A stretch of DNA of 64,000 nt, from the NCBI GenBank assembly GCA_013378375.1, contig JACAFT010000002.1, positions 13,802 through 77,801 on the forward strand, read 5' to 3'. Below, in pieces: positions 9,897-63,606 of the stretch. The first letter of the stretch is position 1; each line of letters starts with the position of its first letter. The notes beneath the pieces are model-generated. The model searched no databases, had not been told where the DNA came from, and saw only the letters and a list, made by a program, of their open reading frames with translations. The stretch is from Nitrososphaerota archaeon. GTDB taxonomy: Archaea; Thermoproteota; Nitrososphaeria; Nitrososphaerales; UBA57. The position numbers were made by a program, and so were the translations under genes.

Positions 9897-10361
9897 TTAC
9901 TTGCTTAATAATATCTCTTCTGGAAGTGAAATCCTTGTACAATACTTACACTGGAGTTTTGGAGGGTGCTTGCTGATAATAATTAGTTCAGAATTAATTG
10001 GTTCATTTGTATTTGATATACACGTTGGATTTGTACATTTAAAAACATCTACGAACCTTTCTGGTAATTCTATATTTCTTTTTTCAGTTATATTATAGTC
10101 CTTAATTATGTTAATAGTTGAATTTGGAGAAATTAACGCTAAACGGTTTGTTTCTTCCACGGCTAGTACTCTATTTTCTATTTTTATTATGTCTTTCTTT
10201 TCAAATTGCTTACTTGTGACGTTTATTGCAACTGACACTTGATTGCCGTCTGTCCCATTAATATCTAAAGCTGTTAATACGTTAAATGCACTTCCTGATT
10301 TGATATGGTCTATTACTGTTCCATGTTGAATTCTATTGATTCTTAATTCCTTTTCTATCAT
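9897..10361 (-). CDS. pyrI: Aspartate carbamoyltransferase regulatory subunit
   Basis: 154 aa. INRIQHGTVIDHI motif and C-terminal Zn site CTNPTC...CKYC. Confidence 0.9.
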   Translation of the reverse strand: MIEKELRINRIQHGTVIDHIKSGSAFNVLTALDINGTDGNQVSVAINVTSKQFEKKDIIKIENRVLAVEETNRLALISPNSTINIIKDYNITEKRNIELPERFVDVFKCTNPTCISNTNEPINSELIIISKHPPKLQCKYCTRISLPEEILLSK

Positions 10362-19422: not shown

Positions 19423-19440
19423 TTTAATTAAATGTTTGAG

Positions 19441-19543
19441 CGCCGCCGACAGGATTTTCATTATAATCTTGAACCTGTGGCCAGCTGATTAACAGTCAGC
19501 TGCTCTACCACACTGAGCTCTCACCATTTTTTGTTACGGCGGC
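19441..19543 (-). tRNA. tRNA-Asn (anticodon GUU) with two non-canonical introns: about 16 nt after position 9 (19519-19534) and about 13 nt inside the T-loop (about 19456-19468)
   Basis: Reverse complement: GCCGCCG TA [ACAAAAAATGGTGAGA] GCTC AGTGTGGTA GAGC A GCTGA CTGTTAA TCAGC TGGCC ACAGG TTCAA[GATTATAATGAAA]AT CCTGT CGGCGGC G. Confidence 0.8.
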
Positions 19544-19827
19544 TAACGGCACTCAAATTACGAAAGATTCAATTATTTATATCAATTTCTTTATGTTTTC
19601 TGTTTATTTTCATTATGCTGCTTTAACCTTCTTGTCATTTTTGTCAAAGCTTTATTACATGACTTTGTAAATTCATTTTTTCATTACTAATTGTTATGTC
19701 TTGGAAATTGGTTCACAAAAAAATGAGAAGAAAGGCTAAATCAAAATCTCTTGAGTGGAAAAAATAAGTTCCTTTCATTTATTCTCTATTTCTCAATTTT
19801 TCATGTTTATATATTCTTAATTAATAA

Positions 19828-19927
19828 TGGGCCCGGTGGGCTTCGATCCCACGGCAAACCGATATCTCCAGTGATATGAGTCGGTCACTTTTAGCGAAAT
19901 TATTCTACCAAGCTGAGTTACGGGCCC
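19828..19927 (-). tRNA. tRNA with CAU anticodon (elongator Met or Ile2) carrying two introns: 15 nt inside the 3' D-stem (19889-19903) and 11 nt at 37/38 (19864-19874)
   Basis: Reverse complement: GGGCCCG TA ACTC AGCTTGGTA GA[ATAATTTCGCTAAAA]GT G ACCGA CTCATA[TCACTGGAGAT]A TCGGT TTGCC GTGGG ATCGAAG CCCAC CGGGCCC A. Confidence 0.8.
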
Positions 19928-20041: not shown

Positions 20042-21073
20042 TTGCTTCAAGGATGTTATACTGCTCTAATAACTCCATTTACTAATGATTGTCAGGTGGA
20101 TTATGAAGGCCTTTCAAGTATTATAGATTTTCAAATCTCTGAAGGCGTTTCTGGTATTTTGGTTGCTGGAACTACTGGGGAAAGTCCTACATTATCTTGG
20201 TCTGAACATGAAAAAGTGATTAAAACAGTATATGATGTAGCCGGTGATCGCACTGTAGTTATTGCTGGTACTGGAAGTAATAATACTGAAGAAAGTCTTA
20301 AAGTCACAAAATTCGCTCATAATTTGGGCATAGAAAATATATTACTTATTGATCCATATTACAATGGTCCTAGTTCTCTTGAAATACGTAAAGAATATTT
20401 AGAAGTTATTGCAAACGAATTTCCTTCCTTGACAATTATTCCTTATATTATACCTGGTCGTACGGGTACTAAATTACTTCCACAAGATCTTGCTCTTTCA
20501 TATAAAAATTATCCAAATATTAATACTGTGAAAGAAGCTACTGGTGATTTTGAAAATGCAAAATTAACTAGAAAACTATGCGGGGATTCTTTTTCTATTT
20601 TATCTGGTGACGATGATAAAACTGTTTCCTTAATTCAAGATTCTGACATTAAAGCTAATGGTGTTATTTCAGTAGCTTCGAATTTAGTTCCTGCTGCAAT
20701 AACTGATCTTGTTTCTTTTACATTAGCTAATGATGGGAATTTGACTACTCTTCAGGATTCCGTATCTCCATTATTCAAAATCATTGGTGTACAAACTAAT
20801 GAATCAACAGAACTTGGATCAGTTATTACTAAATCTCGTAATCCTGTCCCTACAAAAACTCTTATGAGATTGTTTGGCATGCCTTCAGGTCCGTCTCGAA
20901 AACCACTTGGTCTTGTTACCTATCAAGCATTGCAGTTTATTTTAGAAAAAGCACGGATAGTTTACGAAAATAGTAGTTTATTCAAGCCTATTGAGGACTT
21001 TTTTGATTTAAATATACAGGAAAGATTATACTCTGATAAGTACTTGAAGGGATTGTATTATGAATCGTATTAA
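20042..21073 (+). CDS. dapA: 4-hydroxy-tetrahydrodipicolinate synthase
   Basis: 343 aa, TTG start. ALITPF, VAGTTGES and AGTGSNNT motifs. About 40 aa C-terminal extension. Confidence 0.9.
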   Translation: MLQGCYTALITPFTNDCQVDYEGLSSIIDFQISEGVSGILVAGTTGESPTLSWSEHEKVIKTVYDVAGDRTVVIAGTGSNNTEESLKVTKFAHNLGIENILLIDPYYNGPSSLEIRKEYLEVIANEFPSLTIIPYIIPGRTGTKLLPQDLALSYKNYPNINTVKEATGDFENAKLTRKLCGDSFSILSGDDDKTVSLIQDSDIKANGVISVASNLVPAAITDLVSFTLANDGNLTTLQDSVSPLFKIIGVQTNESTELGSVITKSRNPVPTKTLMRLFGMPSGPSRKPLGLVTYQALQFILEKARIVYENSSLFKPIEDFFDLNIQERLYSDKYLKGLYYESY

Positions 21074-21857
21074 ACTTTGTATTGTTGGAGCTTGTGGAAG
21101 ACTTGGTAGGTCTATAATCCAAGAAAGTGTAGATGATTTTGAAATAGTTGGTGCTGTAGAAGCTCCAAATAGTCAAAATCTTGGTAAATCCTTAACTAAT
21201 CTTGGTCTAATTGATTCTGACGTTCAGATTTCCAGTTCTGACGATTTGTCATCTGCTATATTAAATGCCGATGTTACTATCTCTGCTACTATTCCTGATT
21301 CTGAGCTTGTTAATGCACCTATTTACGTACAGAACAATCAAAAAATTATTATTGGTACCACTGGTTTTTCTGAAACTCAATATTCTAAACTTGTTTCTAT
21401 TCTTGATCAAAAAGTTCCATCTATTATAACTTCAAATTTCTCTATTGGAATGAATTTCCTATATCGTATATCTGAATTAGTTGGACTATTGCCAGAAGAA
21501 TTTGAAATTAGTATTAATGAAAAACATCATTCTCAAAAAATTGATTCGCCCAGTGGAACTGCTCTTTCAATCGCTAAAATTATTTCAGAATCTAAAGGAT
21601 ATGAAGATCTTATTTTTGATCGTAGTAAACATGGCAAGAGAAAGAAATCTGAACTTGACGTAACATCTGAGAGAATAGGTGGTACTCCTGGAATACATGA
21701 AGTTAGTATTGCTGGTCAGTATGAAATACTTAGATTTGAGCATATAGCATTTTCCAGATTGGCATTTACACGTGGCGCGCTGTCTGCTGCTCGTTGGCTT
21801 CACAATATGTCTGAACCACGAATTTATAGCATGCAAGATGTAATATCTCGTCAGTGA
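21060..21857 (+). CDS. dapB: 4-hydroxy-tetrahydrodipicolinate reductase
   Basis: 265 aa. N-terminal Rossmann motif KLCIVGACGRLG; EKHHSQKIDSPSGTA motif. Confidence 0.85.
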   Translation: MNRIKLCIVGACGRLGRSIIQESVDDFEIVGAVEAPNSQNLGKSLTNLGLIDSDVQISSSDDLSSAILNADVTISATIPDSELVNAPIYVQNNQKIIIGTTGFSETQYSKLVSILDQKVPSIITSNFSIGMNFLYRISELVGLLPEEFEISINEKHHSQKIDSPSGTALSIAKIISESKGYEDLIFDRSKHGKRKKSELDVTSERIGGTPGIHEVSIAGQYEILRFEHIAFSRLAFTRGALSAARWLHNMSEPRIYSMQDVISRQ

Positions 21858-21864
21858 CCTCAAT

Positions 21865-23148
21865 ATGTGGAAAATCGAAACTCCTTTAAAGAATTTAAAC
21901 GGTAAACTCTTCTTTGCAAATGTTAGTGCTAGTAAGCTTGCAAGTAAATTTGGCACTCCCGTATTTGTTACTGATTCTGAACGAATTATATATAATTATA
22001 ACAGACTTTATTCAGCTTTCTCTTCACATTATGATAAATTTAAAATTAATTATGCGGTGAAAGCTAATAATAATCTATCAATTCTTAAATTATTCAACTA
22101 TTTAGGCAGTGGCGCTGACTGTTCTTGCCCTGAAGAGATATTTCTTGCTAAAAAAATGGGTTTTTCAAGTAAAGATATTTTATATACTGGAAATTATAAT
22201 TCTAACGATCAACTTTCTTATGCACTAAAACAAAAAATCATTATTAATATTGATAGTTCATCGATTCTTCCAAGACTTCTTAAACTTGGAACTCCAAATT
22301 TTATTTCACTTCGAATCAATCCTGGAATTGGCGGTGGTTCACATAGTGGGTTAGTCTTTGGTGGAAAACATACAAAGTTTGGTATGAGTAGAAAAGATGC
22401 TATTCATGCTTACAATCTCGCAAAAAAATCTGGTGTAAAACAATTCGGTATACACATGATGACTGGTTCATCAATTCTTGATTCTTCATATTTTAAGAAA
22501 GCCACTAACAAATTAATTGATATTGCAGTAGAAATTGTAGAAGAATGTAAGATATCAATTGATTTTATTAATATTGGTGGTGGTTTTGGTATACCATATA
22601 AACCTCCAGAAAAGTCACTTGATATAAAGAAAGTCGGTTCAGATATCGGTAAAATTTTTAATGGAAAGAAATCTTCTAAAATTCTTAACAATCCTTGGTT
22701 GTTTGTTGAACCTGGTCGATATCTAGTGGCAGATTCTACTATTCTATTAACTAATGTTCATTCAATAAAATCTGGTCCTGAGAAATATGTTGGTATTGAT
22801 GCAGGAATGAATACATTACTTCGACCAGCATTGTATGGTGCTTATCATCATATTGTTAATGCTAGTCGACTTAATTCTCGTAACAAAGAAGTTGTAAATA
22901 TCTGTGGACAAATTTGCGAAAATACTGATATTCTTGCTAAAAATAGAAAACTTGGTAATATAAAAGAAGGTGATTTATTGGCAATTCTTAATGTTGGTGC
23001 ATATGGTTTTTCAATGAGTTCACAATATAATACCCGTCCACGAGCTGCAGAAGTAATGATTAGTAAAAAAAACTGTAAAATAATCAGACAAAGAGAAACT
23101 ATAAATGATTTAATAAATGGACAAAAAGTTGTTGCGTGGTTTAAATGA
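21865..23148 (+). CDS. lysA: Diaminopimelate decarboxylase
   Basis: 427 aa. PLP lysine context INYAVKAN. Also GGGFGIPY and EPGRYLVA motifs. Confidence 0.9.
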   Translation: MWKIETPLKNLNGKLFFANVSASKLASKFGTPVFVTDSERIIYNYNRLYSAFSSHYDKFKINYAVKANNNLSILKLFNYLGSGADCSCPEEIFLAKKMGFSSKDILYTGNYNSNDQLSYALKQKIIINIDSSSILPRLLKLGTPNFISLRINPGIGGGSHSGLVFGGKHTKFGMSRKDAIHAYNLAKKSGVKQFGIHMMTGSSILDSSYFKKATNKLIDIAVEIVEECKISIDFINIGGGFGIPYKPPEKSLDIKKVGSDIGKIFNGKKSSKILNNPWLFVEPGRYLVADSTILLTNVHSIKSGPEKYVGIDAGMNTLLRPALYGAYHHIVNASRLNSRNKEVVNICGQICENTDILAKNRKLGNIKEGDLLAILNVGAYGFSMSSQYNTRPRAAEVMISKKNCKIIRQRETINDLINGQKVVAWFK

Positions 23149-24305
23149 AAATTTCTTCTCGATTAAATGCTCTTCCTCCTTATCCTTTTGCAAAGCTTGA
23201 AAATCTAATCTCTCAAAAACGCCAAGAAGGAATTGATCTGATAAGTTTTGGTATTGGAGATCCTGATTTAACTACTCCTGATTTTGTAAATCAAGCTTTA
23301 ATTGACGGTCTTTCTATTCCTGGTAATCATAATTATTCATCCAGTGCAGGTGAAAAGTCATTCCGAGATAGTATATCTGTGTGGTTTGAAAAACGATTCA
23401 ATGTATCTCTTAATCCTGATAAAGAAATATGTGCATTGATTGGCTCTAAAGAAGGACTTGCTCATATTTTTCGTGCATTTTTAAATTCTGACGAAACAAT
23501 TGCTGTGCCTAATCCCGGTTATCCACTTTATGAACATGGAGGTACTATGTTAAACGGCTTTAAACCATTAATTCTTGATTTATCTGAAGAATATAATTAC
23601 ATTCCACAAACTAATCAATTACAAGAATCTAATTTTTCTGGTATTTATTTAAACTATCCTAACAATCCTACTGGAGCTGTCATTCAACAGTCCGAACTTA
23701 ATAATATAGTTAATATTTGCAATGAAAAAGATTCTATAATAGTTTATGATAATGCATATTCGGAAATCACTTATGGAGATTATAAAGCTCCTTCTATCAT
23801 GCAATGTACAAATGCCAATCAAAATAGTATAGAATTTCATTCTCTCTCCAAGACTTTCAACATGACTGGTTATAGAATTGGTTTTGCTGTGGGTAATGAG
23901 TTTCTCATTGACGGTCTTAAAAAAATAAAAAATCAAATTGATTCTGGTTCACCAAAATTCATACAATATGCAGCTACAACTGCACTTGATAGTTATTCTA
24001 ATGGAGTTCCTCCTAAAGAAATTCTTGATAATATAAAAATCTATGAAACCCGAATGTCTCTTCTTTATAATGGCTTGTCAAAGCTTGGATATGATGTAAA
24101 AATGCCTTCTGGTACATTTTATTTATGGATGAAAATTAATGAAGATTGTGAAAGTTTTGCAATGAAATTATTGGATAAAGGAATAGTTGTTACTCCTGGT
24201 TCAGGATTTGGAAACGCTGGATCTAATTATGTCCGATTCTCGCTCACAGTTTCAGAATCTGATATTTCTCGCGCATTGGAAAAATTTCCTGAGAATTCGA
24301 AATAA
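23145..24305 (+). CDS. Class I/II PLP aminotransferase, probably the LL-diaminopimelate aminotransferase of this operon
   Basis: 386 aa. NYPNNPTG and SLSKTFNMTGYRIG motifs. The assignment to DapL rests on operon context only. Confidence 0.65.
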   Translation: MKISSRLNALPPYPFAKLENLISQKRQEGIDLISFGIGDPDLTTPDFVNQALIDGLSIPGNHNYSSSAGEKSFRDSISVWFEKRFNVSLNPDKEICALIGSKEGLAHIFRAFLNSDETIAVPNPGYPLYEHGGTMLNGFKPLILDLSEEYNYIPQTNQLQESNFSGIYLNYPNNPTGAVIQQSELNNIVNICNEKDSIIVYDNAYSEITYGDYKAPSIMQCTNANQNSIEFHSLSKTFNMTGYRIGFAVGNEFLIDGLKKIKNQIDSGSPKFIQYAATTALDSYSNGVPPKEILDNIKIYETRMSLLYNGLSKLGYDVKMPSGTFYLWMKINEDCESFAMKLLDKGIVVTPGSGFGNAGSNYVRFSLTVSESDISRALEKFPENSK

Positions 24306-58587: not shown

Positions 58588-59991
58588 CTAACTAAGTTTT
58601 ATTCTAGTTCCTTTTTCAGTATCTTCTACAATGTATCCTCTTCTTGACAACTCTTCTCTAATTTCATCTGATTTCTTCCAATCTTTCATATTTCTTGCTT
58701 CATCTCTTTCTGCTACTAAAATCTTAATGTCATCAGAGATTTCAAAATTTATTGTTTCATTTGATAAAACTCCTAATATCTTATTTATTGATTCAAAATA
58801 CTCTGTAATCTCTAACTTATTTTCTTCTAAAATTTGTTCTTTATCTAGGTATTTGTTAATTTCTCTAACAAATCTAAAAATTGATGCTAATGCAACAGGC
58901 ATATCTAAATCGTCATCCATTGCATTTTCAAACTCGATTTTCGCTTCTTTAGTAATTTTTGATAAATCTGAATCTCTTCCATTTTTAGTTTTATCGTCTA
59001 TGATCTTTGAATAAGTCTCTTGAATTCTGTCTATATTCTCTTTTGCTTGATTTATTCCATCTAAAGTAAAGTTAAGTTGAGATCTATAATGAGATGAAAT
59101 TAATAAAAATCTAATTGCTCTTTGGTCATATCCTTTTTCCAAAAGATTTCTTAATGTAAAATAATTTCCTTCTGATTTAGACATTTTTTTTCCTTCTACA
59201 ATTAGATGTTCTGAATGAATCCAATATTTTACAAATTGTTGACTTGAAACTGCTTCTGATTGGGCTATTTCATTTTCATGATGAGGAAAAATTAAATCTG
59301 TTCCTCCTGCGTGTATGTCTATTTGTTTGCCTAGAATTTTTGTCGACATTACGGAACATTCTATATGCCAGCCTGGCCTTCCTTTTCCTAGAATATTGTT
59401 CCAGTATATGTCTCCATCGTTCTCTTCCCAGGCTTTCCACAATGCAAAATCTTGTACCTCTTCTTTTGAATATTCGTCATTTGTTAGTCGACTTTTTGTT
59501 TTTGATGGATCTATATTAATTCCTGATAATTTTCCATATTCTTTAAATTTTGATATTGAAAAATAATATGAGGCATCGCTTTGATACGCATATCCTTCTT
59601 TTTCTAATTTTTTTATATATTCTTCGATTTCTTTGATGTAATCCGTTGCTTTTGGATATAAAGTGGCCTTTGTTATCTTTAGACTATCTAAATCTTTGAA
59701 AAATTCTTCTGTAAATTTATTTGTATATTCTTTTAATGATTTGCCATTTTTTATTGATGCAGCAATTGTTTTATCATCAACGTCTGTTATATTCATTACA
59801 AATTTTATTTTATATCCTTTGTATTTGAGATATCGTATAATTATATCTTCACATAGAAATGTTCTGAAATTTCCTATATGTGCAAAATCGTATACTGTTG
59901 GTCCACAACAATATATTGATACTTTATTGTCTTGGTTTGGTTTGAATTCTTCTTTTTTCTTACCTAATGTATTGAACAGTTTTAAGACCAT
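58588..59991 (-). CDS. cysS: Cysteinyl-tRNA synthetase
   Basis: 467 aa. HIGN (HIGH) and KMSKS motifs, Zn-ligand Cys residues. Confidence 0.95.
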   Translation of the reverse strand: MVLKLFNTLGKKKEEFKPNQDNKVSIYCCGPTVYDFAHIGNFRTFLCEDIIIRYLKYKGYKIKFVMNITDVDDKTIAASIKNGKSLKEYTNKFTEEFFKDLDSLKITKATLYPKATDYIKEIEEYIKKLEKEGYAYQSDASYYFSISKFKEYGKLSGINIDPSKTKSRLTNDEYSKEEVQDFALWKAWEENDGDIYWNNILGKGRPGWHIECSVMSTKILGKQIDIHAGGTDLIFPHHENEIAQSEAVSSQQFVKYWIHSEHLIVEGKKMSKSEGNYFTLRNLLEKGYDQRAIRFLLISSHYRSQLNFTLDGINQAKENIDRIQETYSKIIDDKTKNGRDSDLSKITKEAKIEFENAMDDDLDMPVALASIFRFVREINKYLDKEQILEENKLEITEYFESINKILGVLSNETINFEISDDIKILVAERDEARNMKDWKKSDEIREELSRRGYIVEDTEKGTRIKLS

Positions 59992-60007
59992 TGTAGAAAT
60001 ATGTGTA

Positions 60008-60055
60008 AAAGCACTATTTATAATGACATTATGATTAGTTAAAGCACTATTTATA
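60008..60055. repeat. 15-bp direct repeat AAAGCACTATTTATA x2 (60008-60022 and 60041-60055), each containing a TATA-like box
   Basis: Read directly. Copy 1's TATA lies about 27 nt from the cysS start (minus strand). Copy 2's TATA (60050-60057) lies about 40 nt upstream of the uORF ATG. Confidence 0.6.
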
Positions 60056-60093
60056 TATGAAAAATCTTCTTATCTAATTTATACAGTGTTAAT

Positions 60094-60147
60094 ATGATGG
60101 AAAATAGAAATTACCGATATTGGTTTTTCAACTATTCCTTTAGTTAG
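60094..60147 (+). CDS. 17-codon aromatic-rich upstream ORF (candidate leader peptide) in the shikimate-operon leader
   Basis: ATG ATG GAA AAT AGA AAT TAC CGA TAT TGG TTT TTC AAC TAT TCC TTT AGT TAG = MMENRNYRYWFFNYSFS. 7 of 17 codons encode Tyr, Trp or Phe. Confidence 0.35.
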   Translation: MMENRNYRYWFFNYSFS

Positions 60148-60180
60148 GACTCTAAACTTTATCTCACTGTTATTTTATTG
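60142..60180 (+). terminator. Imperfect hairpin (AGTTAG / CTAAACT, loop GACT) overlapping the uORF stop codon, followed by a T-rich stretch; candidate attenuator
   Basis: Stem 60142-60147 pairs with 60152-60158, with one bulged A. Downstream sequence is TTTATCTCACTGTTATTTTATTG, whose longest T run is only T4. Confidence 0.25.
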
Positions 60181-60194
60181 AGGTTATGATTATA

Positions 60195-60950
60195 ATGACT
60201 AATATTAAACGTAATGAAAAAATACTTGCTGTTACCTTAGACCATGGTCTAACTATTGGTCCTGTTTCTGGATTAATAGATATTAATGGAATTGTAGATG
60301 ACGTACGAAGAGGTGGTGCATCTGCTATAGTTACACATAAAGGATTCATAAAAAATCTTGATACTATTCCTGATATTGGAAAAATAATTCATTTATCTGC
60401 TAGTACTAGTCTTTCTGTATTTCCAGATGATAAAGTTCTTGTAGGAAATCCTGAAACTGCTATGAATATGGGAGCTGACGCAGTTTCTATTCATGTAAAT
60501 ATTGGTTCAAGTCATGATCAACGAATGATTAAAGATTTAGGTATGATCGTCGATCAATGCAAAGATTTAGAATTACCTGTACTTGCAATGATGTATCCTA
60601 GAGGTGAGAAGGTTTCTAATCCTTTTGATCCCGAAGTGGTTGCGCATGTTGCTCGTATTGGAGCTGAATTAGGAGCTGACGTTGTGAAAACTCTATATAC
60701 TGGCAATCCTGATACTTTCAAAACCGTTGTAGAAGGATGTCCTGTTCCTGTTATAATTGCCGGTGGCCCTAAATCTAATACAGACGATGAACTTCTAAAC
60801 ATGGTTAAAGGAGCAATGGATTCTGGAGCTGTTGGCGTTGCCATGGGTAGAAATATTTTTCAGCATTCCCATCCTGAAAATATTACTAGGGCTATTTCTA
60901 ATATTATTTTCGATAATAGTTCTGTAGAATCTGCTCTGGAGGTTATTTGA
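60195..60950 (+). CDS. aroA': 2-amino-3,7-dideoxy-D-threo-hept-6-ulosonate (ADH) synthase, class I aldolase family (archaeal AroA')
   Basis: The ORF opens at ATG 60186, but GAGGT (60180-60184) is better spaced for ATG 60195. Long identity runs to M. jannaschii MJ0400 as remembered (GADAVSIHVN, AMMYPRG, GAELGADVVKT, AGGPK, GRNIFQH). Confidence 0.85.
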   Translation: MTNIKRNEKILAVTLDHGLTIGPVSGLIDINGIVDDVRRGGASAIVTHKGFIKNLDTIPDIGKIIHLSASTSLSVFPDDKVLVGNPETAMNMGADAVSIHVNIGSSHDQRMIKDLGMIVDQCKDLELPVLAMMYPRGEKVSNPFDPEVVAHVARIGAELGADVVKTLYTGNPDTFKTVVEGCPVPVIIAGGPKSNTDDELLNMVKGAMDSGAVGVAMGRNIFQHSHPENITRAISNIIFDNSSVESALEVI

Positions 60951-62033
60951 TTGACGGAGAAATTACGCACTATTATAGTCGAACCTAGGACTTCTGTTGA
61001 TAATATTGACGATTTTACTCAATTACTCTTTGAATCTGGAATAAAAAGCATATTTCTCTCTGAAATTGACGATGTTGGGAAATGCGACTTTTCTAAATTC
61101 GAAACTTATTCCTTTTCAAGTGATTCAGATGTTAAGGTTGTAGATTCAAAAACCCTGAAATACGTTGAACCTAATCAGAGATTTGCTTATTTTGCTAAAT
61201 TGAATGATGATTCAAATCTTGATGAAATCGTAAATGCTGCAAAAAATAATGCCGAATCTGTGATTATTGAATTTGAAGAAAATACAGAATGGAAAATCAT
61301 TCCTCTAGAAAATCTAATTGCTGAATTACATGGATTGAAAACTAAGATATTTACTGTAATTAATGAACCATCTGAAATTAAAATGATGTTTACTATTTTG
61401 GAATTGGGAGTTGATGGTGTTTTACTTCGAACTTCAAATATAGACGACGTTAATAAATTAAATTCTGAACTTGGCGAACTGTCAAAAATTGATCTTAGTG
61501 TTGCAGAAATCCTTGAAATCAAAGAAGTAGGTATTGGTGAACGAGCTTGTGTTGATACTGCATCTATGCTTAATCAAGGTGAGGGGTTATTAGTTGGTAA
61601 TCAAGCGAATTTTATGTTCTTAATGCATAACGAATCTGCAGGTTCTGGATTTACATCGCCCCGACCATTTCGTGTTAATGCTGGTGCAGTACAGTGCTAT
61701 ACCTTGTTGCCTGATGGTCGTACAAAATATTTGTCCGAACTAGAAAGTGGTACAGAAGTTATGATTGTTTCACATAAAGGTCTTGTGAGAACTTCTATTG
61801 TAGGAAGATTGAAAATTGAAAGTAGACCGTTATTTCTTGTTAGAGCTAAATCCGATGATAAAATCGGCGGTGTTCTAATACAAAATGCTGAAACTATTGC
61901 ATTTGTAAAAGATAATGGAAAACCTATCTCCACTACTTCACTCAAAGTTGGCGACAAAATTCTTGTTAAAACTGAATTAAATAAGGGTCGACATTTTGGA
62001 ATGGAAGTAGAGGAGTATATTCTTGAGAAATAG
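60951..62033 (+). CDS. aroB': 3-dehydroquinate synthase type II (archaeal AroB')
   Basis: 360 aa, TTG start directly after the ADH synthase stop. Size and operon position fit; family resemblance is from memory. Confidence 0.85.
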   Translation: MTEKLRTIIVEPRTSVDNIDDFTQLLFESGIKSIFLSEIDDVGKCDFSKFETYSFSSDSDVKVVDSKTLKYVEPNQRFAYFAKLNDDSNLDEIVNAAKNNAESVIIEFEENTEWKIIPLENLIAELHGLKTKIFTVINEPSEIKMMFTILELGVDGVLLRTSNIDDVNKLNSELGELSKIDLSVAEILEIKEVGIGERACVDTASMLNQGEGLLVGNQANFMFLMHNESAGSGFTSPRPFRVNAGAVQCYTLLPDGRTKYLSELESGTEVMIVSHKGLVRTSIVGRLKIESRPLFLVRAKSDDKIGGVLIQNAETIAFVKDNGKPISTTSLKVGDKILVKTELNKGRHFGMEVEEYILEK

Positions 62034-62748
62034 TTCATTGATCAAACCACGATTTTGTGTTTCTATAGCCGAGTCAAGTACGACTAAATTAAATTCAACT
62101 GTTAAGCGTGCATTTGTTTCTGGTTCTCATTTTGCTGAAATACGCTTAGATTACTTGTCTTCATTTTCTATTGAAAAAATTCAGAATTTATCAAATACGT
62201 ATAAAAATCGATTGATTTTGACTTTTCGTAGTAAGAATGAAGGTGGTTTTTCTAATATATCAGAATCTGACAGACTTGATATATTGTCTCAATTGTTGGA
62301 TCTAAAATATTCTATTAAAGACATTGAATCTAGTACATATCTGAAGCATTATTCATTATTCCACAAAAAGAAAAACCTGCTCATTTCGTGGCATAATTTC
62401 AAATCAACTCCATCTTATAATGAACTAGAAACTCGAGTACGAACTATATCGAAGAAATTCTCTAACAATCCCGAGAATAATGGTAATTGGCAACTTGGAA
62501 AAATCATCAAAATCGTTACCAAAGCAAATACCATGGATGATTGTAATAAAATCTTCAAGTTGTACAAGAAATTTAATAAATCTAGATTTCACTTATTGGC
62601 ATTTTGTATGGGTGATAATGGTTCTACTACACGAATTTTATCTCCTTTTCTTGGAGCGCCTTTTGTCTACTGTTTTATTGGAAAAAATCCGATAGCTCCT
62701 GGACAAATCCATATAAATACACTGAAGGAAATATATTCTAATTTCTAG
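62023..62748 (+). CDS. aroD: 3-dehydroquinate dehydratase, type I
   Basis: 241 aa; alternative TTG start at 62038. AEIRLDYL motif and a KIV lysine context typical of type I DHQase. Confidence 0.8.
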   Translation: MRNSSLIKPRFCVSIAESSTTKLNSTVKRAFVSGSHFAEIRLDYLSSFSIEKIQNLSNTYKNRLILTFRSKNEGGFSNISESDRLDILSQLLDLKYSIKDIESSTYLKHYSLFHKKKNLLISWHNFKSTPSYNELETRVRTISKKFSNNPENNGNWQLGKIIKIVTKANTMDDCNKIFKLYKKFNKSRFHLLAFCMGDNGSTTRILSPFLGAPFVYCFIGKNPIAPGQIHINTLKEIYSNF

Positions 62749-62769
62749 TAATTATTTACAGGTGTTGTC

Positions 62770-63606
62770 ATGAAAGATACTTCAAATCGACTATTTTGCT
62801 TATTGGGTGATAAAGTAGATAATTCATTGTCTCCAGTTATTCATAATTCTTTTTTTAATTATTATGATATTAGTGGATTCTATATTCCATTAAATGTCTC
62901 ACAATCAAATTTGGAAGACATTGTTTTATTGTTAAATAAATTAAATTTTCAAGGAGCTAATGTAACTATTCCACATAAAGAAAATATTATAAAATTTCTT
63001 GATGTATTAGATCCTGTTGCAAAACAAATTCACGCGGTTAATACAATTCTACGAAAGAACGATAAATTAATTGGTTATAATACTGATATTGGTGGATTTC
63101 TTGAACCACTGGATAGAAAAATTTCTTCCTTGAATGATAAAAAAATCTTAATTTTGGGTGCAGGAGGTGCTGCTAAAGCTGTATTTCGTGCTTTGGTCAC
63201 TAAAAATTGTAAAGAAATTGTGATCTTGAATCGTACTGTTGAGAATATTAAAAAATTATTTCATAATGATGATTCTCTTACTAAATTATCCTATGATGTT
63301 TTAACTCAACAGAATTTAGATGCTTTATTTGACGTGGATATTGTTATTAATACAATTCCTCTAAGTAGAACTGGTACTAATTTTGAGTTTAATAATCTGA
63401 AATCAGATATTAGTCTTGCATATGATCTCGAATATATTCCCAAAGAAACTAATTTTATTAAAAAAATGAAAATGCTTGATGCTGAGATTGTATATGGTTA
63501 TGAAATGCTTTTATCCCAAGCTAAATTATCTTTTCAAATCTGGAATGATGTTATGCCTGATGAGAATATAATTCATGATAAAATACTTTCATTATTGAGT
63601 GATTAG
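62770..63606 (+). CDS. aroE: Shikimate 5-dehydrogenase
   Basis: 278 aa. SLSPVIHN, GANVTIPHK, NTD.GG and GAGGAAKAV motifs. Confidence 0.9.
   Translation: MKDTSNRLFCLLGDKVDNSLSPVIHNSFFNYYDISGFYIPLNVSQSNLEDIVLLLNKLNFQGANVTIPHKENIIKFLDVLDPVAKQIHAVNTILRKNDKLIGYNTDIGGFLEPLDRKISSLNDKKILILGAGGAAKAVFRALVTKNCKEIVILNRTVENIKKLFHNDDSLTKLSYDVLTQQNLDALFDVDIVINTIPLSRTGTNFEFNNLKSDISLAYDLEYIPKETNFIKKMKMLDAEIVYGYEMLLSQAKLSFQIWNDVMPDENIIHDKILSLLSD

What the first reader, a model, noticed from the sequence alone, without database searches (positions are those of the whole stretch)
60041..60195. Aromatic-codon-rich uORF (MMENRNYRYWFFNYSFS) plus hairpin in the leader of the shikimate operon: a possible leader-peptide attenuator in an archaeon
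The cysS / aro-operon spacer is 194 nt, long for this compact window. It contains a 17-codon ORF (60094-60147) in which 7 codons are aromatic. All three end products of the pathway are represented within a 10-codon block: Tyr x3, Trp x1, Phe x3 (YRYWFFNYSF). The uORF lies downstream of a TATA-like element (60050-60057), so I predict a TSS near 60080. It lies upstream of an SD-like GAGGT (60180-60184) that serves the ADH-synthase ATG at 60195. The aro mRNA would therefore carry a roughly 110-nt leader, whereas several other first genes here look leaderless. The uORF stop codon sits inside an imperfect hairpin (60142-60147 / 60152-60158) followed by T-rich sequence. A ribosome stalled on the last aromatic codons would occlude that hairpin. 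This is the logic of bacterial pheL/trpL attenuators, and to my knowledge ribosome-mediated attenuation of an amino-acid operon has not been established in archaea. Caveats: TTT and TAT codons are frequent by chance in AT-rich DNA, the T tract is weak (T4 at most), and I found no clear antiterminator alternative by eye.
Basis: partly seen in the sequence, partly recalled or inferred. Interest (0 to 1): 0.8.

Follow-up and report, generated by a model that had tools for sequence, protein, structure and literature searches.

The report
Aromatic-codon leader ORF before archaeal shikimate operon
A 17-codon reading frame packed with Phe, Tyr and Trp codons sits at the start of the aromatic amino-acid operon of a marine archaeon and is conserved as a translated frame in all related lineages, which makes it the best candidate so far for bacterial-style, ribosome-sensed amino-acid control in archaea, though without the bacterial terminator hairpin.

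Summary
The uORF at 60094-60147 (MMENRNYRYWFFNYSFS*, 7 of 17 codons aromatic) lies between a BRE/TATA (TTTATATA, 60050-60057) and the SD (GAGGT, 60180-60184) of ADH synthase.

In one sequence this is only about a 1-5% chance event. The comparative evidence is much stronger. Every relative whose ADH synthase is at least 64% identical carries a 15-17-codon ORF at the same place with 5-7 aromatic codons. These relatives form six sequence lineages of heterotrophic marine Thaumarchaeota (HMT).

- The aromatic positions turn over between lineages. One lineage lost Tyr and Trp and gained two Phe.
- Within lineages the changes are silent third-position changes at about the neutral rate, with no replacements. 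This holds only in this frame.
- Ammonia-oxidising relatives lack the uORF and look leaderless.
- Many Desulfobacterota carry a canonical Phe/Tyr leader-peptide attenuator before the same operon.

There is no terminator hairpin, no significant fold, and its small hairpin is not conserved. The only recurrent structure is a weak helix that brackets the uORF.

Best reading: a translated, aromatic-tRNA-sensing leader ORF whose output step is still unknown. It is a new variant of a known kind.

The parts
60005..60023 (.). First copy of the BRE/TATA block (GTAAAAGCACTATTTATAA). Its TATA lies 23 nt from the cysS ATG (59991, minus strand), so it probably serves a leaderless cysS.
   Evidence: The direct repeat was found and the spacing was read. 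Relatives have a single copy at this distance from cysS.
60038..60057 (+). Second copy of the BRE/TATA block (GTTAAAGCACTATTTATATA; TATA box 60050-60057). This is the promoter of the leader/aro transcript.
   Evidence: AAAAG[YR][RM][MY]TATTTATATA is conserved in all lineages, 31-41 nt upstream of the uORF ATG. The purine-rich BRE lies on the plus-strand side.
60080..60082 (+). Predicted transcription start, 23-25 nt after the TATA box. It would give a 5' UTR of about 12-14 nt before the uORF.
   Evidence: This is an inference from the 23-24 nt TATA-to-ATG spacing of leaderless first genes in this window, e.g. cysS and the gene at 9897-10361. It has not been mapped.
60085..60093 (+). el1: the 5' flank of the uORF start (AGTGTTAAT). 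It is (G)AGUG-like, a possible weak SD, and is complementary to el2.
   Evidence: AGTGTAA is conserved. It pairs with el2 in the MFE and centroid folds of the window, L001, L003, L005 and L082. For the duplex test.
60094..60147 (+). Leader ORF (uORF), 17 codons plus TAG: MMENRNYRYWFFNYSFS*.
   Evidence: It is conserved in position, frame, start codon and aromatic richness in six lineages. Substitutions within lineages are synonymous only, and only in this frame.
60112..60141 (+). Aromatic codon block: TAC CGA TAT TGG TTT TTC AAC TAT TCC TTT (Y R Y W F F N Y S F). These are the presumed stalling (sensor) codons.
   Evidence: Y9, F12 and Y14 are invariant. F11 varies as F/S/Y. Y7 and W10 are lost only in the L090/91 lineage, which gained two other Phe codons. 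A Y7C SNP is present in one conspecific MAG.
60142..60153 (+). el2: AGTTAGGACTCT, spanning the stop codon and the invariant ACTCT just after it. It can pair with el1, or weakly with the SD.
   Evidence: TAGT and ACTCT are invariant columns. The el1:el2 duplex beats shuffles in the L001, L003, L004-6 and L082 lineages but not in the window itself, where it is -5.4 kcal/mol with p = 0.15.
60142..60158 (+).
   Evidence: It is present in the window and in the L001 and L082 groups. It is disrupted in the L004-6 and L090/91 groups, by inspection. It was not detected as terminator-like.
60170..60179 (+). U-rich tract (TTATTTTATT) directly 5' of the SD. It is T5 in most relatives. It could be an archaeal oligo-U termination or pause signal, or simply an unstructured spacer.
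   Evidence: Its position is conserved, but T5 runs are common in this DNA. Its function has not been tested.
60180..60184 (+). Shine-Dalgarno sequence of ADH synthase (GAGGT; GGTGTG in relatives).
   Evidence: It is conserved in all lineages 8-10 nt from the start codon. It is the same motif type as the internal cistrons of this window, whereas first cistrons lack it.
60195..60950 (+). ADH synthase (aroA'), the first enzyme gene of the operon. Public annotation starts at 60186.
   Evidence: NCBIfam TIGR01949 at 2e-92. Alignment of N-termini and SD spacing favour 60195. P0001 is annotated as 254 aa, which corresponds to a start at 60186.
60951..63606 (+). DHQ synthase II, aroD and aroE. The operon continues beyond the window with aroK (GHMP type), aroA, aroC and a chorismate mutase/prephenate dehydrogenase fusion.
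   Evidence: For the continuation see the conspecific contigs L175-L177.

Best explanation
The 17-codon ORF is a translated leader cistron that makes expression of the eight-gene aromatic amino-acid operon depend on how fast ribosomes read Phe, Tyr and Trp codons, and so on the supply of charged aromatic tRNAs.

Proposed sequence of events:
1. Transcription starts about 23-25 nt after the TATA box at 60050-60057, near 60081. This step is inferred.
2. The uORF (60094-60147) is the first cistron. ADH synthase (60195) is a second, SD-dependent cistron. This is supported by the signals and by conservation.
3. When aromatic aminoacyl-tRNAs are scarce, the leading ribosome dwells on the seven aromatic codons at 60112-60141. 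This step is inferred by analogy.
4. A ribosome held on the last aromatic codons covers or unwinds the invariant stop-proximal segment (TAG..ACTCT, 60142-60153). That segment can otherwise pair with the 5' flank of the uORF, closing the uORF into a loop, or weakly with the SD. The position of the ribosome would therefore set whether the SD and AUG 35-50 nt downstream are used, and possibly whether RNA polymerase passes the U-rich tract at 60170-60179. This step is weakly supported.

The logic is that of bacterial leader-peptide attenuation. The output device is not the bacterial terminator/antiterminator pair. It is more likely translational, as in ermC or the mycobacterial polycysteine leader ORFs, or tied to archaeal oligo-U or factor-dependent termination.
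For: (1) The ORF is present at the same place in all 30 loci examined of the clade (ADH synthase 64-100% identical). These fall into six sequence lineages: MMENRNYRYWFFNYSFS, MIRYSSYRYWYFSYP, MIQRPSYSYWSFSYP, MKQCTSYRYWFFSYS, MQEFNNRYTFFGYFF and MTMQEFNNRYAFFGYFF.

(2) The aromatic count is held at 5-7 although positions turn over. L090/91 lost Y7 and W10 and gained F4 and F14.

(3) Neutral divergence is high. Four-fold-site identity is 0.66 within the L001 group, 0.49 between groups and 0.25-0.41 to L090/91. Even so, close pairs show pS 0.13-0.38 with pN 0 in the uORF frame. The same changes are replacements in the other two frames.

(4) The uORF and the stop-to-SD segment are more conserved than four-fold sites. 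They are also more conserved than the TATA-to-uORF spacer in most lineage pairs.

(5) ADH synthase carries an SD like the internal cistrons of this window, while first cistrons are leaderless with a TATA 23-24 nt from the ATG. All 11 Thaumarchaeota analysed by GeneMarkS-2 fall in the 'leaderless first gene plus RBS for the remaining genes' class (PMC6028130).

(6) The operon makes chorismate and includes chorismate mutase/prephenate dehydrogenase, which matches a Phe/Tyr-dominated sensor.

(7) Independent precedent exists for the same operon. Thirty-one Desulfobacterota loci carry M..W.R.YFYFSYYYF..CASTFKR leader peptides, and the five folded show a canonical terminator.

(8) The el1:el2 helix beats shuffles in the L001/L003, L004-6 and L082 lineages, with p from at most 0.002 up to 0.05.

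(9) The last aromatic codon lies 3-9 nt before the stop and el2 lies 5-15 nt after it. That is within reach of a stalled ribosome's footprint (geometry).
Against: - There is no experimental evidence for the TSS, for translation of the uORF or for any response to amino acids. The organisms are uncultured.
- No significant RNA structure was found. z-scores run from -1.3 to +1.6, the consensus fold energy is -0.02 kcal/mol and there is no terminator-like site.
- SD pairing with the uORF 3' end or el2 is no better than shuffles, p 0.10-0.89.
- el1:el2 is not significant in the window itself or in L090/L161, and no clean compensatory changes were seen.
- The six lineages share ancestry, so they are not six independent trials.
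- The uORF has at best a weak SD (AGUG) and a short 5' UTR of about 7-17 nt, so how it initiates is unclear.
- The next-most distant group (61% identity, L167/L007) has only a 9-codon uORF, MTGDRIY[YC]N, with 1-2 Tyr.
- One conspecific MAG has a Y7C change.
- TTT and TAT are common codons in 32% GC DNA.
Confidence: 0.6

Rival explanations
1. The uORF is translated but does not sense amino acids. It would be a constitutive first cistron that loads ribosomes, keeps the leader unfolded or protects the 5' end, and so boosts or tunes ADH synthase translation. Its aromatic richness would be a by-product of U/A-rich sequence under nucleotide-level constraints.
For: - Leader genes have been proposed to raise translation of downstream genes by reinitiation (PMC4833913, listed).
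- The el1:el2 helix involves the predicted 5' end of the transcript.
- No switch-like structure was found.
Against: - It does not explain why aromatic codons in particular are retained through synonymous changes and replaced by other aromatic codons (F/Y at codon 11), nor the compensating gains in L090/91.
- It does not explain why the bacterial version of the same operon uses an aromatic leader peptide.
- Aromatic content of 33-47% compares with a 13% background.
Confidence: 0.15
2. The conserved feature is a non-coding DNA or RNA element and the open frame rides on it by accident. Candidates are a promoter-proximal or transcription-factor site, a second promoter at TAAACTTTA (60154-60162) giving a leaderless ADH synthase mRNA from 60186, or a 5' UTR structure.
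For: - The nucleotide blocks outside the ORF (AGTGTAA, TAGT, ACTCT, the U tract and the SD) are as conserved as the ORF.
- A 1-nt insertion in the window shifts the frame near the stop, yet the TAGTTAG nucleotides are kept.
- The stop is always TAG although TAA is the commonest stop here, 38 of 65.
- TAAACTTTA sits about 27 nt before the ATG at 60186.
Against: - Within-lineage substitutions are third-position synonymous at about the neutral rate with zero replacements, and only in this frame. A nucleotide-level element would suppress all positions equally.
- The ATG, the frame and the stop are kept in all lineages despite indels.
- The candidate proximal TATA lacks the AAAAG BRE of the strong promoter.
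- A leaderless mRNA would leave the invariant SD GGTGTG/GAGGT unexplained.
Confidence: 0.12
3. The peptide itself is the active part. It would be either a nascent arrest peptide that senses free aromatic amino acids in the exit tunnel, like TnaC or the fungal arginine attenuator peptide, or a small trans-acting peptide.
For: - SY[RS]YW[FSY]FSY[SP] is fairly conserved in four lineages.
- Two lineages end in Pro-stop, as TnaC does.
- Leader peptides can act in trans (PMC7298713).
Against: - The L090/91 lineage replaces Trp, Tyr7 and the C-terminus while keeping only the aromatic count.
- Residues 2-6 are free to vary.
- A 15-17-residue peptide without a conserved motif across the clade fits codon sensing better than peptide sensing.
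Confidence: 0.08

Closest known systems
Enterobacterial pheL-pheA and trpL-trpE leader-peptide transcription attenuators
   Same: - A short ORF in the 5' leader of an amino-acid biosynthetic operon.
- Enrichment in codons for the end products.
- A variable N-terminal part with the regulatory codons near the 3' end.
- The stop codon lies next to a segment able to form alternative pairings.
   Different: - No G+C-rich terminator hairpin with a U run and no clear antiterminator.
- The host is an archaeon with a TATA/BRE promoter.
- The codons are mixed Phe/Tyr/Trp for the common pathway rather than one amino acid.
- No Rfam leader family matches.
Aromatic leader-peptide attenuator upstream of the ADH synthase/DHQ synthase II operon in Desulfobacterota (found here; no Rfam family)
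   Same: - The same operon: the orthologous first gene at about 50% identity.
- A Phe/Tyr-rich run (YFYFSYYYF) with an occasional Trp.
- The leader ORF is the first translated element of the transcript.
   Different: - The bacterial version has a sigma-70-like promoter, a strong SD, a 27-36-codon peptide with a conserved CASTFKR tail, and a textbook terminator (GCCGTGGC...GCCACGGCTTTTTT) with an antiterminator.
- The archaeal version has none of these.
- The two share no sequence similarity, so they appear to have arisen independently.
Mycobacterial polycysteine leaderless short ORFs (bioRxiv 10.1101/834739)
   Same: - A cognate-codon-rich short ORF is the 5'-most cistron of a polycistronic biosynthetic mRNA.
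- It occurs in an organism where leaderless or short-leader initiation is common.
- The output proposed there is translational, through SD availability with polar effects, not a terminator hairpin.
   Different: - In mycobacteria the Cys tract forms an exceptionally stable duplex with the SD region.
- Here SD pairing is weak and not above chance.
- The uORF here is not strictly leaderless, since the TATA-to-ATG distance is 31-41 nt.
ermC/cat-type translational attenuation
   Same: A stalled ribosome on a leader ORF is proposed to remodel nearby pairings and expose a downstream SD.
   Different: - Those systems sense drugs through the nascent peptide.
- They also have well-defined stable hairpins, which are absent here.

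Membership tests
Leader-peptide transcription attenuators (trpL/pheL/hisL class) | Short ORF in the 5' leader of an amino-acid biosynthetic operon, downstream of the promoter | tested here: met
   The uORF at 60094-60147 lies between the TATA (60050-60057) and ADH synthase. The placement is the same in six lineages.
Leader-peptide transcription attenuators (trpL/pheL/hisL class) | Enrichment of the ORF in codons for the pathway's end-product amino acids | tested here: met
   7 of 17 codons here and 5-7 of 15-17 in relatives, against a 13% background. The operon makes chorismate and includes CM/PDH.
Leader-peptide transcription attenuators (trpL/pheL/hisL class) | The ORF is translated | tested here: inconclusive
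   The evolutionary signature of translation is present: pN = 0 with pS 0.13-0.38 in close pairs, in frame 0 only. Direct translation cannot be tested with these tools.
Leader-peptide transcription attenuators (trpL/pheL/hisL class) | Intrinsic terminator (stable hairpin plus U run) between the leader ORF and the first gene | tested here: not met
   No terminator-like sites were found. Fold z-scores run from -1.3 to +1.6. The consensus fold energy is -0.02 kcal/mol.
Leader-peptide transcription attenuators (trpL/pheL/hisL class) | Mutually exclusive antiterminator structure controlled by ribosome position | tested here: inconclusive
   Two alternative weak pairings share el2. el1:el2 is significant in some lineages. 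el2:SD is significant only in L090/L161. No covariation was seen.
Leader-peptide transcription attenuators (trpL/pheL/hisL class) | Operon expression rises on starvation for the cognate amino acid | not testable with these tools
   This needs reporter assays or transcriptome and ribosome-profiling data.
Translational attenuation by a leader ORF (ermC; mycobacterial polycysteine ORFs) | The downstream gene's SD is sequestered by a segment in or next to the 3' end of the leader ORF | tested here: inconclusive
   The best SD partner is el2 ((G)CACUCUAAU, +5..+15 after the stop) in 7 of 8 sequences. The energies of -3.9 to -9.9 kcal/mol are not better than shuffles, p 0.10-0.89. RNAalifold found the same 7 pairs with no net energy.
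Translational attenuation by a leader ORF (ermC; mycobacterial polycysteine ORFs) | Stalling codons lie close enough for a stalled ribosome to cover the masking segment | tested here: met
   The last aromatic codon is 3-9 nt before the stop and el2 starts at the stop. The footprint reach assumed here is textbook knowledge, not measured.
Nascent arrest peptides sensing free amino acid (TnaC, AAP) | Invariant peptide residues required for arrest, independent of codon choice | tested here: not met
   Trp10, Tyr7 and the C-terminus are replaced in L090/91 while only the aromatic count is kept.
Rfam leader families (Phe_leader, Trp_leader and others) or any Rfam RNA | Match to a curated covariance model | tested here: not met
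   Only noise-level C/D-box hits at E about 8-10 in 59900-60300. Nothing in the spacer reached gathering score.

The most novel reading that the evidence does not exclude
This would be the first ribosome-mediated, amino-acid-responsive attenuator of a biosynthetic operon in Archaea. A leader ORF would read out charged Phe/Tyr/Trp-tRNA supply and couple it to downstream expression without a terminator hairpin. The output would run through archaeal-specific means such as SD or 5'-end remodelling, oligo-U termination or factor-dependent polarity. It appears to have evolved independently of the bacterial attenuator that controls the orthologous operon in Desulfobacterota.
Probability: 0.5. Interest if true: 0.85.

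Novelty: new variant of a known kind. Interest (0 to 1): 0.72.

Why it matters
- Leader-peptide attenuation is a textbook consequence of coupled transcription and translation in bacteria.
- Archaea also couple the two processes. However, full-text searches here found no archaeal amino-acid operon shown or predicted to be controlled this way.
- A conserved candidate with a clear comparative signature turns the question of whether archaea use ribosome-sensed attenuation into a testable one, on a defined 115-nt leader.
- Because no terminator hairpin is present, the answer would also show what replaces it in an archaeal transcription and translation system.
- The parallel bacterial attenuator on the same operon gives a natural comparison of convergent solutions.
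- The host clade has genomes of about 1 Mb (PMC7300363). Regulation that needs no regulatory protein would fit such reduced genomes.

Tried and rejected
- **Rfam.** Scans of the spacer at a permissive E-value and of the whole window at gathering score found no family.
- **C/D-box sRNA.** The ATGATG in the window resembles a C box, but it is not conserved in relatives and there is no D box.
- **Bacterial-type terminator or promoter scan.** No terminators were found.
- **RNAalifold and single-sequence folds.** No significant structure was found.
- **SD sequestration by the aromatic tract, as in mycobacteria.** It is not above chance.
- **MAFFT alignment for formal pair counting.** It misplaced the el1 register of the window and of L090 by 2 nt. 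I therefore used duplex-versus-shuffle tests instead of the count of structure pairs.
- **Ammonia-oxidiser orthologues.** The apparent short aromatic ORFs (L077 MITFYGIWASD; L119-132 LFFCNFYGY) lie upstream of the predicted TSS or inside or antisense to a neighbouring gene. They are not leader ORFs.
- **Other leader ORFs in the 64-kb window.** No convincing case was found. The only other amino-acid operon, lysine, has no cognate-codon ORF in its leader.
- **Frameshift fusion of the uORF to ADH synthase.** The +1 frame is open only in the L091/L161 group, where gene callers produced a 276-aa product. It is not conserved.
Full report
**What is there**

- cysS starts at 59991 on the minus strand and the spacer is 194 nt.
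- TTTATATA is at 60050-60057.
- An ATG-initiated ORF at 60094-60147 encodes MMENRNYRYWFFNYSFS*. It has 3 Tyr, 1 Trp and 3 Phe codons.
- GAGGT is at 60180-60184 and ATG codons are at 60186 and 60195.
- NCBIfam confirms cysS, ADH synthase (TIGR01949, 2e-92), DHQ synthase II, aroD and aroE.
- Conspecific contigs show the operon continuing with GHMP-type shikimate kinase, EPSP synthase, chorismate synthase and a chorismate mutase/prephenate dehydrogenase fusion. The leader therefore precedes the whole common pathway plus the Phe/Tyr branch point.

**Chance in a single sequence**

- Aromatic codons make up 8.3% of codons in the window's genes and 12.9% of codons in its 572 short spurious ORFs.
- Only 5 of those 572 ORFs reach 41% aromatic.
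- In 20,000 dinucleotide-preserving shuffles of the spacer, an ORF of at least 10 codons that was at least 41% aromatic arose in 0.96%. One with at least 7 aromatic codons of all three kinds arose in 2.1%.

**Comparative evidence**

One scan each of species-representative genomes and of metagenome contigs with the ADH synthase protein gave 160 loci. Exact-protein look-ups gave 17 more.

Every locus whose ADH synthase is 64-100% identical to the window's has the same layout: divergent cysS, then BRE/TATA, then a 15-17-codon ATG ORF, then a U-rich stretch, then the SD GGTGTG, then ADH synthase.

| Lineage | Leader peptide |
|---|---|
| window, L081, L175-177 | MMENRNYRYWFFNYSFS |
| L082 | MIRYSSYRYWYFSYP |
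| L001-3, L083-86, L171 | MIQRPSYSYWSFSYP |
| L004-6, L087-89, L172, L174 | MKQCTSYRYWFFSYS |
| L090, L169, L170 | MQEFNNRYTFFGYFF |
| L091, L161-166 | MTMQEFNNRYAFFGYFF |

- The N-terminal residues vary freely.
- The aromatic count stays at 5-7.
- The L090/91 lineage lost Tyr7 and Trp10 but gained two new Phe codons. What is conserved is aromatic content rather than a fixed peptide.
- L005 (ASW8) and L006 (ATL) are published genomes of the heterotrophic marine Thaumarchaeota, a sister clade of the ammonia oxidisers with genomes of about 1 Mb (PMC7300363). The window belongs to that wider clade, not to Nitrosopumilales.

**Is it constrained as a translated frame?**

Four-fold degenerate sites of ADH synthase give the neutral yardstick.

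| Comparison | Four-fold-site identity |
|---|---|
| L001 vs L003 | 0.66 |
| Between groups | about 0.5 |
| L090/91 vs the rest | 0.25-0.41 (saturated) |

- Against this yardstick, close pairs differ in the uORF only by TAC/TAT, TTT/TTC and CCT/CCC changes. That gives pS 0.13-0.38 and pN 0.
- The single replacement is Thr/Ala at the position where Trp had been lost.
- Read in the other two frames, the same differences are mostly replacements.
- A synonymous rate near neutral with no replacements is the signature of selection on translation. It is not what a DNA or RNA motif would produce.
- The transcribed leader is more conserved than four-fold sites. It is also more conserved than the TATA-to-uORF spacer in most lineage pairs.
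- One conspecific MAG carries a Tyr7Cys SNP, so Tyr7 is dispensable. L090/91 shows the same.

**Transcript architecture**

- In this window, first genes have a TATA 23-24 nt from the ATG and no SD. cysS and the gene at 9897-10361 are examples.
- Internal genes carry GGAGGT or GGTG 5-9 nt upstream of the start.
- GeneMarkS-2 placed all 11 Thaumarchaeota it analysed in this class, with leaderless first genes and an RBS for the remaining genes (PMC6028130).
- ADH synthase has the internal-cistron signal. The uORF ATG lies 31-41 nt from the TATA, which predicts a 5' UTR of about 7-17 nt containing a conserved (G)AGUG.
- Ammonia-oxidiser orthologues at about 50% identity have a TATA about 24 nt from their ATG and no uORF.
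- A group at 61% identity (L167/L007) has only a 9-codon uORF, MTGDRIY[YC]N, behind a GAGGA SD.
- At 57% identity (L173) the gene follows aspartate kinase on the same strand with an 11-nt gap.

**Mechanism: what the data do and do not show**

- The bacterial device is absent. No terminator-like hairpin was found. The folds of eight leaders have z-scores from -1.3 to +1.6. RNAalifold gives -0.02 kcal/mol.
- The one recurrent structure is a helix between the 5' flank of the uORF start (el1, 60085-60093) and the stop-proximal segment with the invariant ACTCT (el2, 60142-60153). It appears in the MFE or centroid folds of the window, L001, L003, L005 and L082.
- As a duplex, el1:el2 beats shuffles in L001/L003 (p at most 0.002), L004-6 (0.01-0.05) and L082 (0.016). 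It does not in the window (0.15) or in L090/L161.
- el2 is also the best partner of the SD in 7 of 8 sequences, but that pairing is not above chance (p 0.10-0.89). The exception is the region-restricted test in L090/L161.
- The U tract before the SD keeps its position, but T5 runs are common in this DNA.
- I therefore commit to the sensor and hold the output step loosely. The sensor is a translated leader ORF whose ribosome occupancy reports aromatic tRNA charging.
- The most likely output is that a ribosome held on the last aromatic codons occludes el2 and so changes access to the SD and AUG, or changes passage of the polymerase through the U tract. Only the geometry of this step is shown. 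The rest is inference.

**Comparison with known systems**

- The logic matches pheL/trpL. Membership of that family fails on the terminator and antiterminator features.
- The closest mechanistic analogue may be the mycobacterial polycysteine first-cistron ORFs, which act on SD availability (bioRxiv 10.1101/834739).
- A new comparison emerged here. Thirty-one Desulfobacterota loci in the same scans carry a conserved leader peptide (for example MQ..W.RYFYFSYYYF.G..CASTFKR) 110-250 nt upstream of their ADH synthase homologue. The five I folded show a textbook terminator, GCCGTGGC...GCCACGGCTTTTTT.
- Rfam has no family for it in the five loci tested. The same operon has therefore acquired an aromatic leader ORF at least twice.
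- Full-text searches found no archaeal amino-acid leader-peptide attenuator. Archaeal ribosome-profiling papers mention uORFs only in general terms.

**Verdict**

- Confidence that the uORF is a functional, translated element is about 0.8.
- Confidence that it senses aromatic aminoacyl-tRNA supply to control the operon is about 0.6.
- The output mechanism is unresolved.
- Novelty: a new variant of a known kind, and potentially the first archaeal example.

Noticed in passing
L019, L020, L024, L026, L031, L040, L047, L053, L056, L064, L065, L068, L074, L078, L096, L098, L104, L111, L113, L121, L129, L133, L137, L140, L141, L145, L149-151, L155, L158 (110-250 nt upstream of the ADH synthase homologue): Desulfobacterota/deltaproteobacterial loci carry a conserved aromatic leader peptide (for example MQSCWRRYFYFSYYYFPG.ECASTFKR). 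In the five loci folded it is followed by an antiterminator/terminator pair (GCGCCTCGACTTTTAAAAG ... CTTTTAAAAGCCGTGGCGC ... GCCACGGCTTTTTT). This is a canonical attenuator of the 'archaeal-type' shikimate entry operon. Rfam found no family in the five loci tested.
   Followed up: partly
window 60005-60022 and 60038-60055; also 60018-60027 and 60190-60199: The BRE/TATA block is duplicated 33 nt apart only in the window's species; relatives have one copy shared by cysS and the leader. The inserted segment also repeats TTATAATGAC from the ADH synthase start region, which suggests a local duplication or recombination.
   Followed up: partly
window 60186 vs 60195: The public annotation (P0001, 254 aa, named fructose-bisphosphate aldolase) starts at 60186. 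Alignment with relatives and SD spacing favour 60195. In the L091/L161 lineage the canonical ATG is ATA. There gene callers extended the protein to 276 aa through a frame that overlaps the uORF.
   Followed up: partly
L167 1226-1500 and L007 (upstream of 686): The 61%-identity group has a longer spacer (274 nt in L167). It holds a 9-codon uORF, MTGDRIY[YC]N, behind a GAGGA SD, followed by CTCC. A second TATA-like element lies about 21 nt from the ADH synthase ATG. This may be a reduced or ancestral form of the leader.
   Followed up: partly
window 60145-60147 and the homologous positions in all lineages: The uORF stop is TAG in every lineage, although TAA is the commonest stop in the window's genes (38 TAA, 15 TAG, 12 TGA). 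By hand count, C-ending Phe/Tyr codons make up about half of those in the uORFs, against about 18% in genes. Both points suggest an added nucleotide-level constraint.
   Followed up: partly
L176 (GCA_002693165.1), position homologous to window 60113: A conspecific MAG has TAC changed to TGC (Tyr7Cys) in the uORF. It is the only difference in the 206-nt leader region compared.
   Followed up: no
window 19696-19767: A 23-codon ORF, MSWKLVHKKMRRKAKSKSLEWKK (8 Lys, 3 Arg), lies about 270 nt upstream of the lysine operon (dapA-dapB-lysA-dapL, 20042-24305). A tRNA-like sequence on the other strand separates it from the operon. It has no Pfam match. It could be a small basic protein rather than a leader.
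   Followed up: partly
window 19437-19560 and 19829-19927: Two tRNA-like sequences have acceptor and T-arm features (for example GGGCCCG...GGGATCGAAGCCCAC...CGGGCCC on the minus strand). Neither ARAGORN, with or without introns, nor Rfam calls them. They may be tRNA genes with non-canonical introns.
   Followed up: partly
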